The notes below the pieces were generated by a model. The model was not told where the DNA came from. It saw only the letters and a program-made list of their open reading frames with translations, and made no database searches. From positions 1 through 41,214 of IMG/VR virus record IMGVR_UViG_3300049012_000004: 41,214 nucleotides of DNA; one strand, given 5' to 3'. The DNA is from a virus. Its lineage: Duplodnaviria > Caudoviricetes. Every line of letters starts with the position of its first letter. Position 1 is the first letter of the stretch. The translations under genes and the position numbers were made by a program. Shown one piece after another: positions 27,092-37,926 of this stretch.

Positions 27092-27120
27092 TTGACAAGG
27101 TGCCCGGAAGTGTGCACAAT
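27092..27120 (+). promoter_or_regulatory. Host sigma70 promoter A1
   Basis: TTGACA-N17-CACAAT with an upstream T-tract. Confidence 0.8.
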
Positions 27121-27433: not shown

Positions 27434-27462
27434 TTGACAAAATGGAAAACACCGTGTAGAAT
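27434..27462 (+). promoter_or_regulatory. Host sigma70 promoter A2
   Basis: TTGACA-N17-TAGAAT with an upstream T-tract. Confidence 0.88.
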
Positions 27463-27490
27463 GGTTTCCATGCTGAAGAAAACACTCAGC

Positions 27491-27502
27491 CGCTCATTAA
27501 AA
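27491..27502 (+). promoter_or_regulatory. boxA-like antitermination site
   Basis: CGCTCATTAAAA directly after a GCTGA/TCAGC hairpin; compare boxA (C/T)GCTCTTTAACA. Confidence 0.5.
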
Positions 27503-27521
27503 GTTTAATCCGATATAACCA

Positions 27522-27600
27522 CCTTCAGGTGGGCGTACAGGTGACTGTATGCTCTCAGGACTAGGTACGGGGACAGGCCGATTATTCCCGCACCTGAAGG
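27522..27600 (+). ncRNA. Candidate three-way-junction RNA
   Basis: CCTTCAGGTG/CACCTGAAGG perfect 10-bp stem enclosing GGCGTACAG-GTGA-CTGTATGCT and CGGGGA/TTCCCG hairpins. Confidence 0.5.
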
Positions 27601-27641
27601 CCACGTGGAAAATTCCCTTGATTGGGTGAGTACTGTGGGGG

Positions 27642-27669
27642 TTGACAAACCGGATTAAACGTGTATAAT
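27642..27669 (+). promoter_or_regulatory. Host sigma70 promoter A3
   Basis: TTGACA-N16-TATAAT. Confidence 0.85.
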
Positions 27670-27734
27670 GGGCACCATGCTGAAGCGATTCAGCAAGTAT
27701 CCTAAAGGTGGCACTAGGAAAGTCATAGGCCCTA

Positions 27735-27746
27735 CGTTCTTTAACA
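27735..27746 (+). promoter_or_regulatory. boxA-like antitermination site
   Basis: CGTTCTTTAACA(ATTT), downstream of the GNRA hairpin GCTGAA-GCGA-TTCAGC (27679-27694). Confidence 0.7.
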
Positions 27747-27804
27747 ATTTGATAATGATGCGATTTTCTCTCACAAGGGGATGTCCTGCGGGTAACACTG
27801 CGGG

Positions 27805-27847
27805 GCAAACCCTGAGGGCTTACCATGGGTGGGTCTTCAGGGTTTGT
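27805..27847 (+). other. Long hairpin, putative RNase III processing site
   Basis: GCAAACCCTGAGGGCTTACC-ATG-GGTGGGTCTTCAGGGTTTGT, ~20 bp with G-U pairs. Confidence 0.65.
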
Positions 27848-27871
27848 TTAACAACCTGTGAGGTAATCAAA

Positions 27872-28137: not shown

Positions 28138-28343
28138 AAACCTTCGAGAAAAATCAACAGGTAGTCTGTCAGAACCCTGAGGGGTACTCCCTCACTATGG
28201 GTAAACCCTACACTGTACTGTGGTACTGGCCCAGTGAGGGTTCCGACTTACCCGGCTTTACATGGCCTGCCTATGTGGATTTAATGGATGATAGGGGTAA
28301 AAAAGTAACCTGCCATGCTTCACGATTCAAACCGATAGATTGA
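28134..28343 (+). CDS. Early hypothetical protein (small SH3-like beta protein)
   Basis: GTGA overlap; QVVC...LT.GKPYTV...DDRG...HASRF. Confidence 0.7.
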   Translation: MKTFEKNQQVVCQNPEGYSLTMGKPYTVLWYWPSEGSDLPGFTWPAYVDLMDDRGKKVTCHASRFKPID

Positions 28344-28393
28344 CAACTCAGGCCCATTGTGTTACAGTGGGTCTCGGTGGTCGATTTGACCGA
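28340..28393 (+). promoter_or_regulatory. Intergenic module 1: sigma70-like promoter embedded in a long hairpin plus 17-nt repeat
   Basis: TTGACA-N17-TACAGT; GCCCATTGT/ACAGTGGGT stem; GTGGTCGATTTGACCGA at 28377-28393. Confidence 0.6.
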
Positions 28394-28413
28394 TAACCTG
28401 TGAGGATAACATC

Positions 28414-28948: not shown

Positions 28949-28997
28949 TTGACAATCGTAGGGCCTCAAGGGGTCCTACAGTGGTCGATTTGACCGA
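28949..28997 (+). repeat. Intergenic module 2: hairpin plus 17-nt repeat
   Basis: TTGACAA, GTAGGGCCTC/GGGGTCCTAC stem, GTGGTCGATTTGACCGA at 28981-28997. Confidence 0.7.
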
Positions 28998-29015
28998 ATA
29001 TGTGAGGTATGAATA

Positions 29016-29660: not shown

Positions 29661-29716
29661 TTGACAGCCAAGTGGGATTCGTGTAGAGTCTCACTTAACG
29701 GTCAATTCAGGCCGAT
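29661..29716 (+). promoter_or_regulatory. Intergenic module 3: sigma70-like promoter embedded in a hairpin
   Basis: GGGG-TTGACA-N17-TAGAGT; AAGTGGGATTC/GAGTCTCACTT stem closed by TTGAC/GTCAA. Confidence 0.65.
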
Positions 29717-29745
29717 TTTAAAACCGCCATTATAGGAGAAATACC

Positions 29746-35376: not shown

Positions 35377-37926
35377 ATGTGGACACCTGAAGCACTGTTG
35401 GCAGAACAAGTGAAGTTGGAAGAGCAGATGGTTCTGGATGGTGCTGACCGCTACATGCGTAACGTGAACCGTAACCGTGAGCGTGGGATGGAAGACAAGT
35501 TGGACTACAGCAAGCGCATCATTGGTGCCAAGACTGAGGCCCTTGCAAAAGCCATTGAGGAATGGAAGCAGGCCATGGCAGCAGGCCACGCCAGTCACCG
35601 GGGGATTGCCTACCGTTACATCCATGACATGGACAACAAGGTACTGGCCTACCTGACCCTGAAGGCTGTACTTGCAGGTATCACCAAGCCGCGCACCTTA
35701 CAGATGGTTACCATTTCCATTGGGACCACCGTTGAGGATGAGAAGCGACTGGCTGCTATCCGGGACACCGAGAAGAAGTCCTTCAACCGTATCGTTGAGA
35801 AGGCCAGTGAGCGTGCCAGTGACAACAACAAGCACTACTACGCAGTCCGTGCTGCCCGTGAGGTGGACGACTGGGAAGAGTGGGGCAAGCAGGACAGGCT
35901 GCACATTGGGATGCGCCTGCTGGACATTATGATGCAGACCGTGGGGTTGGTTGAGGTGTTCATGCAGAAGCATAGCGCCACGACTGGTGCCAAGTACATC
36001 CGTGCCACCGCCGAGACAGTCGAGTGGATTGAGAAGCGTGTTGAGGTTGCCCAGTACTTCCGCCCGGTGTTCGAGCCGATGGTTGTACCGCCCAAGCCAT
36101 GGACCAATGTCCGTGACGGTGGGTACCTGACCTCGTTCATCAAACCATTGTGTCTGGTGAAGTTCTCTCGGGTGAGCAAGGAGTACATCGAACAGTTGGA
36201 CTCAGTGGAAATGCCAGTGGTCTACGAGGCAGTCAACGCCTTGCAGAATACAGCGTGGTCAATTAACAGCAAGGTGCTGGACGTGATGCAGACATTGTGG
36301 GAAGCAGGAAGCAACCTGCCCTGCCTACCCCTGCGTAATGGCCTGCCCATGCCAACCAAGCCACACGACATTGACACCAACAAGATGGCCCAGCGTGATT
36401 ACCGAAGTGCTGCCGCGAAGATTCACATGCTGAACCTGTCCCACATGGGGCAGCGTATTGGATTCAACTACACGGTACGACAAGCCAGAAGGTTTGAGGC
36501 GTACCCTGAGTTGTACTTCCCGTACCAGTTGGACTTCCGTGGACGCATCTATGCGGTGCCCCACCTGAACCCGCAAGGTCCTGACAACATGAAGGGACTG
36601 TTGCAGTTCGCCAAGGGTACCCCGCTGGGTAAGGATGGTGCCAAGTGGTTGGCTTTCCATGGTGCGAATGTGGCAGGCAATGACAAATGCAGCATTGATG
36701 AGCGCGTGCAGTGGGTACTGGAAAACGAGAAAGCAATCTTGGCCTGTGCGGAGAATCCTCTGGACAACCTTGAGTGGACAACCACACTGGGTGGTGTTGA
36801 GATTGACAAGCCGTTCCAGTTCTTGGCCTTCTGCTTTGAGTGGGCCGGGTACCGCCGTGAAGGTGAGGCGTATGAGTCTCGCATCCCGGTTGCCTTGGAT
36901 GGTTCATGCTCAGGTATTCAACACTTCTCCGCTATGCTCAAGGACGAGCGTGGTGGTGCAGCGGTGAACCTGACCCCCGCCAAGCTACCTCAGGACGTGT
37001 ACCGGATGGTGGCCGAGGAAGTCATCAAGATGGCCGAGGTGGATGCCGTGAGTGGTACCCCTGATGAACCTATGAGCAGGACCGATGAGGCCACTGGCGA
37101 GGTGTATGAGTGGGTTCGTGACGGTTCCAAGAGTGCGGCCCAAGCGTGGTTGAAGTTTGGTATCACCCGCAAGGTGACCAAGCGTTCAGTCATGACGCTG
37201 GCCTACGGTTCCAAGGAGTACGGGTTCCGTGACCAGTTGATGACCGACATCATTGGACCAGCCAAGACCGCAGCGATGCGCCCGGATGGTACCACTGACA
37301 GCGAGAAGTTCCCCTTCTCTGGTGATGGTTATGGCGCTGCCCTGTACATGAGCAAGTTGATTTGGATTGCGGTGAACCGGGTACTTGTGAAGGCAGGCGA
37401 AGCCATGGAGTGGTTGCAAGATGCAGCGAAACTCCTAGGCCAAGAGGGTCTCCCAGTGCGCTGGACCACGGTGGTTGGTTTCCCTGTGATGCAGGCTTAC
37501 TACAACACCGAAAGAAAGAACGTGAAGACTGCGCTGTACGGCAAGACCTTCCTGACTACCCTTCACCGGGAAGTGGATGGAATTGACAAACGCGCCCAGT
37601 CTCAGGCTGTGTCACCAAACTTCGTACACTCGTGCGATGCGGCACACTTGATGCTGACCGTGGTTCGCTGTACCCAGCAGGGTATCAACCAGTTCGCCAT
37701 GATTCACGACTCGTTCGGTACGACAGCAGGCCGCACTGAGGAAATGTTCAAGACTGTCCGCGAGTCCTTCGTTGAGATATACGATGAGATTGACGTGCTG
37801 GAAAATTTCCGTGAGGAAGTGGCTGAGCAGTTGAGCGACAAGCGCCTGAAGAAACTACGCCCCCTTCCGTTGAAGGGAACACTTGATGTGAAGGGTATCT
37901 TGGAAAGCAAGTACGCCTTCTCCTGA
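35377..37926 (+). CDS. Single-subunit DNA-dependent RNA polymerase (T7 gp1-like)
   Basis: PMVVPPKPW, LDFRGRIY, DGSCSGIQHFSAML, RKVTKRSVMTLAYGS, SPNFVHSCDA, IHDSFGT, C-terminal YAFS. Confidence 0.99.
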   Translation: MWTPEALLAEQVKLEEQMVLDGADRYMRNVNRNRERGMEDKLDYSKRIIGAKTEALAKAIEEWKQAMAAGHASHRGIAYRYIHDMDNKVLAYLTLKAVLAGITKPRTLQMVTISIGTTVEDEKRLAAIRDTEKKSFNRIVEKASERASDNNKHYYAVRAAREVDDWEEWGKQDRLHIGMRLLDIMMQTVGLVEVFMQKHSATTGAKYIRATAETVEWIEKRVEVAQYFRPVFEPMVVPPKPWTNVRDGGYLTSFIKPLCLVKFSRVSKEYIEQLDSVEMPVVYEAVNALQNTAWSINSKVLDVMQTLWEAGSNLPCLPLRNGLPMPTKPHDIDTNKMAQRDYRSAAAKIHMLNLSHMGQRIGFNYTVRQARRFEAYPELYFPYQLDFRGRIYAVPHLNPQGPDNMKGLLQFAKGTPLGKDGAKWLAFHGANVAGNDKCSIDERVQWVLENEKAILACAENPLDNLEWTTTLGGVEIDKPFQFLAFCFEWAGYRREGEAYESRIPVALDGSCSGIQHFSAMLKDERGGAAVNLTPAKLPQDVYRMVAEEVIKMAEVDAVSGTPDEPMSRTDEATGEVYEWVRDGSKSAAQAWLKFGITRKVTKRSVMTLAYGSKEYGFRDQLMTDIIGPAKTAAMRPDGTTDSEKFPFSGDGYGAALYMSKLIWIAVNRVLVKAGEAMEWLQDAAKLLGQEGLPVRWTTVVGFPVMQAYYNTERKNVKTALYGKTFLTTLHREVDGIDKRAQSQAVSPNFVHSCDAAHLMLTVVRCTQQGINQFAMIHDSFGTTAGRTEEMFKTVRESFVEIYDEIDVLENFREEVAEQLSDKRLKKLRPLPLKGTLDVKGILESKYAFS

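What the first reader, a model, noticed from the sequence alone, without database searches (positions are those of the whole stretch)
27463..27635. Three-way-junction RNA candidate with its own early sigma70 promoter
Seen: promoter A2 is followed by ~180 nt with no RBS-supported ORF before promoter A3. A perfect 10-bp helix (27522-27531/27591-27600) encloses a 9-bp GNRA-capped hairpin (GGCGTACAG-GTGA-CTGTATGCT), a 14-nt joining strand (CTCAGGACTAGGTA) and a second hairpin whose loop (CAGGCCGATTA) could pair with upstream TAATC. It lacks hammerhead CUGAUGA/GAAA cores. Inference: because it is among the first DNA injected, it may be an anti-defence RNA (antitoxin mimic or sponge), a put-like cis antiterminator, or an unclassified ribozyme or aptamer.
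Basis: partly seen in the sequence, partly recalled or inferred. Interest (0 to 1): 0.7.

Follow-up and report, generated by a model that had tools for sequence, protein, structure and literature searches.

The report
Uncatalogued folded RNA between phage promoters
Between two host-type promoters at the first-read end of an uncultured T7-like phage lies a 160-base non-coding stretch whose predicted fold is kept by paired mutations in related phages and matches no catalogued RNA family; it is laid out like a miniature ribosomal-RNA gene, so it is likely cut out as a small RNA that would bind a host protein early in infection, though neither step has been tested.

Summary
The structure is real and larger than reported. 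The window is a complete T7-like phage (Autographiviridae). The three-way junction (27522-27600) is the core of a ~160-nt RNA (27503-27660) closed by a 10-bp stem that reaches into the spacer of the next promoter. In three lineages all 46 pairs are kept, five by double changes, and the 25 unpaired junction and loop bases are invariant. The proposed loop-TAATC pseudoknot fails: TAATC belongs to the closing stem. No Rfam family matches, no hammerhead can be built in any block order, and no homologue was found outside this small clade. The layout (promoter, hairpin, boxA-like site, long-range closing stem, no terminator) resembles a ribosomal-RNA operon unit. Best reading (0.38): the RNA is likely released by RNase III and acts in trans as a protein-binding decoy; expression, cutting and partner are untested. 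Rivals: cis leader that aids read-through (0.27); unclassified self-cleaving ribozyme (0.15), prompted by a hammerhead in the same slot of phage RHEph01 whose sequence likeness is not significant after correction. Only three full lineages exist, so statistics are thin.

The parts
27434..27462 (+). Host sigma70-type promoter A2; start predicted at A27470
   Evidence: 11 of 12 consensus; hexamers kept in L011 while 7 of 17 spacer bases differ; in L146 a different sigma70-type promoter stands before the same RNA. Start site inferred.
27472..27490 (+). 5-bp hairpin at the 5' end of the transcript, in the place of boxB in an rrn leader
   Evidence: Pair probabilities 0.67-1.0; stem invariant in 3 of 3 lineages.
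27492..27502 (+). boxA-like site, one mismatch to the published consensus, critical C4 kept
   Evidence: with the consensus of 10.1101/091223. Not significant by count alone (5 sites at <=1 mismatch against 3.7 expected); the mismatch is changed towards consensus in runs X6 and X7. 27492-27499 is also predicted to pair with 27666-27673.
27503..27512 (+). Closing stem P0, 5' strand (contains the TAATC of the proposed pseudoknot)
   Evidence: Pair probability 0.99-1.0 for the two outer pairs checked in three transcript lengths, 0.59 for the innermost; G-C to A-U double change in L011.
27517..27520 (+). Short inner closing helix, 5' strand (pairs with 27640-27643)
   Evidence: Pair probability about 0.54; never varies in 3 lineages, so untested by covariation.
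27522..27531 (+). P1 5' strand
   Evidence: Perfect 10 bp with 27591-27600; probability 0.69-0.89; invariant, so no covariation.
27532..27553 (+). P2, 9-bp hairpin with GNRA loop; the variable arm
   Evidence: 4 of 9 pairs with double changes, 1 with a single change, none broken; loop GUGA or GCGA; further pair-keeping variants in X7, X14, X18.
27554..27567 (+). J2/3, 14-nt single strand; candidate recognition or catalytic strand
   Evidence: 14 of 14 invariant in 3 lineages; no difference listed in X14, X18, X22.
27568..27590 (+). P3, 6-bp stem with 11-nt loop L3
   Evidence: 2 of 6 pairs swap G-C and G-U on one side; loop 11 of 11 invariant.
27591..27600 (+). P1 3' strand
27601..27638 (+). 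Second arm: 4-bp helix, purine-rich internal loop (loop-E-like by inspection, motif recalled), 3-bp hairpin
   Evidence: Helix probability 0.91-0.92, tip 0.77; 35 of 38 positions invariant, changes in unpaired bases; no covariation.
27651..27660 (+). Closing stem P0, 3' strand, inside the spacer of promoter A3
   Evidence: A3 spacer differs from L011 at 1 of 16 bases, the compensating one; A2 spacer at 7 of 17, A1 spacer at 2 of 17.
27642..27669 (+). Host sigma70-type promoter A3, overlapped by the 3' end of the RNA
   Evidence: 12 of 12 consensus.
27736..27746 (+). Perfect boxA in the A3 leader (context)
   Evidence: Only 0-mismatch site in the window; also a match in L011 and L146.
27805..27847 (+). 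20-bp hairpin before the first A3 gene; likely RNase III site like T7 R0.3 (context; T7 comparison recalled)
   Evidence: 27760-27860 folds at z = -5.85; a long hairpin of changed sequence forms in L011 and L146.

Best explanation
A covarying ~160-nt structured non-coding RNA (27503-27660) is encoded behind a consensus host-type promoter, and it is likely made like a small ribosomal RNA, likely cut free by RNase III in its closing stem, and would then act in trans as a decoy that binds a host protein in the first minutes of infection. Steps: (1) host RNA polymerase starts at A2, about 27470 (promoter shown by consensus and conservation; start inferred); (2) the hairpin and boxA-like site recruit Nus factors, which hold the 5' strand of P0 until its partner is made 140 nt later (inferred from the rrn precedent); (3) P0 closes over two nested three-way junctions (fold shown by covariation for P0, P2, P3; predicted for P1 and the second arm); (4) there is no terminator, so the RNA is either the head of the long early transcript or is released by RNase III (inferred); (5) the invariant single strands J2/3 and L3 and the purine-rich loop form a binding surface for a host protein, most plausibly a defence or RNA-decay factor (inferred; no target identified).
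For: Fold under selection: 138 of 138 cells paired, 5 pairs with double changes, 3 of 500 shuffles as high, slid controls 30-51% paired. Unpaired J2/3 plus L3 25 of 25 invariant, against 141 of 201 in the neighbouring A3 leader and 12 of 22 in P2: specific recognition, not only structure. The RNA is the only sequence that A2 adds to what A3 transcribes, and it is kept, with a promoter in front, in L146, which lost the upstream ORF and replaced the promoter. Layout hairpin, boxA, long-range stem equals the rrn layout, in which Nus factors are proposed to deliver the RNase III stem strand (PMC8632103, passages; 10.1101/091223, passages). P0 with its predicted extensions gives about 22 pairs with two internal loops, in the range of RNase III substrates (two turns typical, 11 bp minimum, internal loops tolerated; PMC1540722, passages). 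No + strand terminator-like site between 27000 and 30906. The same slot between mapped promoters P1 and P2 of LUZ100 is 201 nt long and is predicted to close with a stem into P2, with unrelated sequence.
Against: No expression, processing or binding data. Only three full lineages (about 95% identical over the RNA); P1 and the second arm never vary, so they rest on folding energy. The unbroken part of P0 is 10 bp (11 in L011), at the lower limit for RNase III; proximal and distal boxes were not mapped. The A2 boxA has a mismatch and is not significant by count (5 against 3.7 expected). No target could be named; features of the known decoy classes were not met. Tandem promoters in T7-like phages can exist only to load polymerase, so a private promoter does not prove a private product.
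Confidence: 0.38

Rival explanations
1. Cis-acting leader module: boxA/Nus plus the folded RNA keep host polymerase processive (Rho shield or put-like contact) so that transcription pulls in the genome and reaches the early genes; the RNA has no life of its own.
For: boxA-like sites follow both A2 and A3; LUZ100, J8-65 and ROV85 carry boxA near their early promoters; about 8 kb separate the leader from the phage polymerase gene; Nus factors can block Rho in reporters (10.1101/091223).
Against: A3 (12 of 12) and further sigma70-type promoters at 28340, 28990, 29661, 30892 and 32257 start downstream and bypass the element; boxA alone would serve; a Rho shield does not need 25 invariant unpaired bases; no terminator-like site for 3.2 kb.
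Confidence: 0.27
2. Self-cleaving ribozyme of an unclassified or hammerhead-derived kind that cuts the early transcript, possibly after the GUA at the end of J2/3 (27565-27567).
For: RHEph01 has a type III hammerhead right after a boxA-like site in its early leader and two more nearby, and shares 11 bases with the J2/3-P3 border, across its cleavage site, followed by a like hairpin; hammerhead cores lie in early regions of L122, L127, L129, L133, L269, L285; new ribozyme classes were found in places where other classes are common (PMC10085705, parts 1 and 3 of 8); a variable capped arm with invariant junction strands is the pattern of small ribozymes (own knowledge).
Against: No hammerhead in any of the six block orders with up to 2 core mismatches, control found; no ribozyme family at E <= 10 while a same-size control finds three hammerheads at E 0.001-0.04; the RHEph01 likeness is 7 of 500 shuffles alone but 1 of 9 comparisons and 77 of 500 against the 4-kb locus; one 11-mer hit in about 2.5 Mb of loci, both strands, is what chance gives.
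Confidence: 0.15
3. Base-pairing small RNA or ligand-sensing aptamer: the invariant strands pair with a host or phage RNA, or bind a small molecule and switch the leader.
For: Invariant 14-nt and 11-nt single strands; an alternative hairpin 27519-27532 competes with P1 in short transcripts (probability 0.34 against 0.63).
Against: No antisense match longer than 9 nt in the phage genome; no terminator or start codon next to the element for a switch to act on; no riboswitch family match. Host targets were not tested because the host is unknown.
Confidence: 0.12
4. Not an RNA function: a DNA-level site (origin, operator), a small protein, or conservation by recent exchange.
For: A minus-strand frame 27497-27826 stays open over the element in 3 of 3 lineages; left ends of T7-like phages hold DNA sites (own knowledge).
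Against: That frame has 1 synonymous to 7 non-synonymous codon changes (L011) and 2 to 7 (L146), against 8 to 3 and 18 to 8 in real ORFs; G-U pairs and the GNRA loop are kept on the + strand only, and the minus strand folds at z = -1.7; the phage-promoter repeat is absent from the element; P2 differs at 10 of 22 columns, so the segment is not a recent copy.
Confidence: 0.08

Closest known systems
Phage T7 early control region (host promoters A1-A3, boxA, RNase III site R0.3); recalled, not found in searches
   Same: Left end of an Autographiviridae genome, tandem sigma70 promoters, boxA, long hairpin before the first gene.
   Different: A ~160-nt covarying two-junction RNA with its own boxA-like site fills the A2-A3 interval and closes into the A3 spacer; no sequence match in 50,697 phage records.
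Bacterial rrn leader: hairpin, boxA, RNase III processing stem, Nus complex (PMC8632103; 10.1101/091223)
   Same: Order hairpin, boxA, 5' strand of a long-range stem that encloses a structured RNA.
   Different: Stem is 10 bp plus predicted extensions, the enclosed RNA is 140 nt and not ribosomal, the boxA has one mismatch; Nus binding and cleavage untested.
Type III hammerhead ribozyme in the early leader of Rhizobium phage RHEph01 (Rfam RF00008; phage hammerheads in PMC3088659)
   Same: Same slot after a boxA-like site; 11 shared bases; GUA followed by a short hairpin.
   Different: Core and stems II and III cannot be formed; the core-like bases are paired in P1; likeness not significant after correction.
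Leader-derived small RNAs of Pseudomonas phages seen by ONT-cappable-seq (10.1101/2023.10.13.562163; LUZ100, PMC10134795)
   Same: Short structured RNAs at 5' ends of phage transcripts, conserved within a genus, function unknown; LUZ100 P1-P2 has the same spacing and a predicted closing stem.
   Different: Those arise by premature termination; here no terminator is seen. No sequence likeness. The passages and section 10 read of the LUZ100 paper do not describe a small RNA at P1-P2.
HK022 put RNA (recalled)
   Same: Structured RNA just behind an early promoter.
   Different: put is two adjacent hairpins that need no boxA; here nested junctions, a boxA-like site and a downstream promoter that bypasses the element.

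Membership tests
Hammerhead ribozyme (all six permutations) | CUGAnGA, GAAA and NUH blocks joined by stems I-III | tested here: not met
   No solution in 27465-27700 with up to 2 core mismatches; RHEph01 control found; block definition from PMC10085705.
Hammerhead ribozyme (all six permutations) | Rfam profile match | tested here: not met
   None at E <= 10; control finds three.
Other self-cleaving ribozymes and riboswitches in Rfam 15 | Covariance-model match | tested here: not met
   Gathering thresholds missed even the RHEph01 hammerheads, so only the E-value scans count; no control was run for non-hammerhead classes.
Self-cleaving ribozyme (any class) | Site-specific self-cleavage | not testable with these tools
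   Needs in vitro transcription.
rrn-type boxA element | Match to the 11-nt consensus with C at position 4 | tested here: inconclusive
   27492-27502: 10 of 11, C4 kept; 5 such sites against 3.7 by chance. The A3 copy 27736-27746 is 11 of 11 (met).
rrn-type boxA element | NusB/NusE binding | not testable with these tools
   Needs binding or ChIP assay.
RNase III substrate | Helix of at least 11 bp, typically two turns, internal loops allowed | tested here: inconclusive
   10 unbroken pairs (11 in L011), about 22 with predicted extensions; criteria from PMC1540722.
RNase III substrate | Proximal and distal box sequences at the cut | not tested
   Cut site unknown; boxes not mapped.
Type III toxin-antitoxin antitoxin mimic | Tandem pseudoknot repeats (recalled) | tested here: not met
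   No tandem repeat inside the element among the 20 largest of 40 repeat families shown; proposed pseudoknot not supported.
RNA anti-CRISPR (solitary repeat) | Likeness to a CRISPR repeat | tested here: not met
   No CRISPR repeat family among Rfam matches at E <= 10.
Csr/Rsm sponge | Several GGA motifs in hairpin loops (recalled) | tested here: not met
   Four GGA in 27503-27660 (27558, 27571, 27607, 27652), none in a hairpin loop.
tRNA or tRNA mimic | Cloverleaf or T-arm with acceptor stem | tested here: not met
   ARAGORN none; the CCA after P1 is paired in the second arm (0.91-0.92).
put-type cis antiterminator | Read-through of downstream terminators in cis without Nus factors | not testable with these tools
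   Needs a reporter; no terminator-like site on the + strand before 30906.

The most novel reading that the evidence does not exclude
The inner junction is a new class of self-cleaving ribozyme, perhaps rebuilt from a hammerhead, that fills the early-leader slot where RHEph01 keeps a hammerhead, and the phage borrows the host's ribosomal-RNA folding machinery (boxA/Nus) to fold it.
Probability: 0.13. Interest if true: 0.9.

Novelty: new variant of a known kind. Interest (0 to 1): 0.5.

Why it matters
Very few non-coding RNAs of lytic phages have a known function (PMC10884466, passages). This one is short, has natural compensatory variants as built-in controls and sits in the first DNA to be read, so all three readings can be tested with one 200-base template. 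A trans-acting RNA released by an rRNA-style route would be a new form of RNA-based host takeover; a new ribozyme class would join a list of about ten (PMC10085705). If it is only a cis leader module, it is an unusual but modest variant of the T7 early region.

Tried and rejected
Homologue searches, all empty beyond the clade: blastn against 50,697 phage records (none; three hits of 19-25 nt at E >= 2) and 72,556 plasmids (none); pattern scans of IMG/VR (2 of 4 loci real; 2 of 8; 2 of 101; 2 of 3; always the same two contigs, the rest without the helices) and of GTDB genomes (0 of 10); models R1-R3 on fetched loci (window and L146 of 93 sources; window only of 85; 2 strong hits in 100 of the 111 motif loci; 0 of 9, filters off: L146 only of 9, next 13.4 bits); model R2 on 151 genomes of the order of a Burkholderia record (0, no positive control in the set, host unknown). 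The models come from three near-identical sequences and cannot see far. No RNA holder listed among 24 runs. X8 gave no contig. Supplements of the viral structured-RNA survey PMC10690425: no occurrence of four motifs or the sample id in the 3 of 6 files searched; files 1, 2, 4 and three larger files could not be searched, so a listing there is not excluded. Paper searches for boxA in T7-like phages found nothing relevant; two searches for phage non-coding or decoy RNAs listed no paper on this RNA (listings only). Rejected: loop-TAATC pseudoknot; minus-strand and plus-strand ORFs; hammerhead; phage-promoter site; retron-like RNA (no reverse transcriptase among 47 ORFs scanned; no long hairpin); weak alignments to Bonnellvirus leaders (12 and 7 of 500 shuffles; one is the promoter hexamer, the other a gapped patchwork); L278 shares a 10-mer only. 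Likenesses to glycine and glutamine riboswitches, the sarcin-ricin loop, 5S rRNA and phi29 pRNA were considered from memory and dropped: order of motifs differs and Rfam shows none.

Full report
Context. The window is a whole 41.2-kb virus record with T7-type RNA polymerase (35377-37926), DNA polymerase, capsid, tail and terminase genes. Nearest named phages infect Ralstonia, Limnohabitans and Bordetella (terminase 61-67%; polymerase 50-59%), so a betaproteobacterial host is likely but not shown. The finding lies after the terminase and the repeat-rich end region, among sigma70-type promoters at 27092, 27434 (A2) and 27642 (A3).

Observation. The 79-nt core folds at z = -3.3, but the stated interval does not (z = -1.36). 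Folding further showed why: 27503-27512 pairs with 27651-27660 inside the A3 spacer, and 27601-27638 forms a second arm, so the core is one branch of a ~160-nt RNA with two nested junctions (27492-27673 z = -3.9, 0 of 300). The TAATC proposed for a pseudoknot is part of this closing stem; freeing it costs 10.9 kcal/mol for a 1.1 kcal/mol duplex.

Relatives. Two IMG/VR contigs (L011, L012, identical over the element) and one metagenome contig (L146) carry it. On these three lineages all 46 pairs are kept; 5 pairs change on both sides (4 in P2, 1 in P0), 3 on one side; 3 of 500 shuffles reach this, slid controls give 30-51% paired. With three related rows this is supportive, not a formal proof. 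Contigs in public runs add variants: X18, X14 (L146 type), X22, X7. The tally over all is 12 distinct pair variants kept, 0 broken, 7 of them double, where a random single change keeps a pair 49 of 276 times; two of the 12 (X7, closing stems) assume an unchanged partner on another contig in a cut table, so 10 are firm. X6 diverges after 27500 and its contig ends before the core is complete. The unpaired J2/3 and L3 are 25 of 25 invariant, the A3 leader 141 of 201, P2 12 of 22. The A3 spacer differs from L011 at 1 of 16 bases, the compensating one; the A2 spacer at 7 of 17, though the A1 spacer also differs at only 2 of 17. L146 lost the upstream ORF and has another promoter, yet kept the RNA. 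No coding signal: the plus frame loses its start, and the open minus frame changes mostly non-synonymously.

What it is not. Rfam gives nothing at gathering level or at E below 2.6. Gathering level is a weak test here, since it missed hammerheads in RHEph01 that the E-value mode finds. A block-wise search for hammerheads in any order failed on the element and found the control. Homologue searches beyond the clade were empty (see Tried and rejected), with models too narrow to see far.

Layout. The transcript would begin with a hairpin, then a boxA-like site (10 of 11, C4 kept), then at once the 5' strand of the closing stem. A perfect boxA follows A3. By count the A2 copy is not above chance (5 sites against 3.7); its position, and the change towards consensus in X6 and X7, are the support. 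In rrn operons boxA-bound Nus factors are proposed to hold the leader and deliver it to its partner to make the RNase III stem (PMC8632103, passages; 10.1101/091223, passages). P0 has 10-11 unbroken pairs and about 22 with predicted extensions, borderline to typical for RNase III (PMC1540722, passages). No + strand terminator-like site lies before 30906, so a free RNA would need processing.

The slot in other phages. LUZ100 has mapped host promoters P1 and P2 (PMC10134795, passages and section 10; record), 201 nt apart; the interval is predicted to close with a stem into P2 (z = -2.3 for 400-660) and holds a 29-nt motif shared with distant phages but absent from the window. RHEph01 has a hammerhead straight after a boxA-like site that shares 11 bases with the J2/3-P3 border; the alignment reaches 7 of 500 shuffles but is one of nine comparisons. 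So the slot carries different small RNAs in different phages; this is a lead, not homology.

Mechanism. Because A3 and five later promoters bypass the element, because this RNA is all that A2 adds, and because single strands are held invariant, I favour a product that acts on its own: likely folded with Nus help, likely released by RNase III, then binding a host protein (0.38). A cis leader role (0.27), self-cleavage (0.15), base-pairing or sensing (0.12) and non-RNA causes (0.08) remain. Shown: sequence, promoters by consensus, covariation of P0, P2, P3, invariance. Inferred: transcription, Nus binding, cleavage, partner.

Novelty. The setting (T7-type early leader with boxA; T7 details recalled, not found) is known, and earlier AI notes report other boxA-headed structured phage leaders (leads only). 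The fold itself matched no catalogue searched; part of the supplements of PMC10690425 could not be searched. Leader-derived phage small RNAs of unknown function are published (10.1101/2023.10.13.562163 and PMC9163698, passages). Verdict: new variant of a known kind, interest 0.5.

Noticed in passing
L238:450-478 (LUZ100); L417:701-739; L418:701-757; L419:386-415; L420:701-727: A ~29-nt motif is shared by LUZ100, Bonnellviruses, a Zobellviridae contig and Bacillus phage QCM11; in LUZ100, J8-65, ROV85 and T4S1 it lies between tandem TTGACA-type promoters. No Rfam match. It looks like a small pseudoknot by inspection; absent from the window.
   Followed up: partly
L239:658-715, 2078-2148, 2544-2605 (RHEph01); L122:2249, L127:3703, L129:3904, L133:3904, L269:7024, L285:7064: Hammerhead cores in early regions of related phages, not listed in the RHEph01 annotation and below Rfam gathering scores.
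   Followed up: partly
window 6473, 26208, 34854, 35222, 37924, 39690: A 17-nt repeat in intergenic positions is the likely phage RNA polymerase promoter; it differs from the T7 promoter.
   Followed up: no
window 27675-27850: The A3 leader repeats the first 10 transcribed bases of the A2 leader, has its own hairpin, a perfect boxA and a 20-bp hairpin that changes sequence but stays paired in relatives.
   Followed up: partly
window 27497-27826 (minus strand): An antisense frame stays open over the element in three lineages, in L146 through a -1/+1 indel pair, but has no conserved start and no synonymous bias.
   Followed up: yes
window 28340-28395, 28990-29015, 29661-29720: Later early promoters are followed by related short near-palindromes; the one at 29708 shares 10 bases with loop L3, within chance.
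   Followed up: no
window 27601-27608: An 8-base palindrome directly after P1 is invariant in 3 of 3 lineages; it could also allow RNA dimers or be a DNA site.
   Followed up: no
L146:7550-7740: This relative lacks the 71-codon ORF between A1 and A2 and has an A1-like promoter in place of A2.
   Followed up: partly
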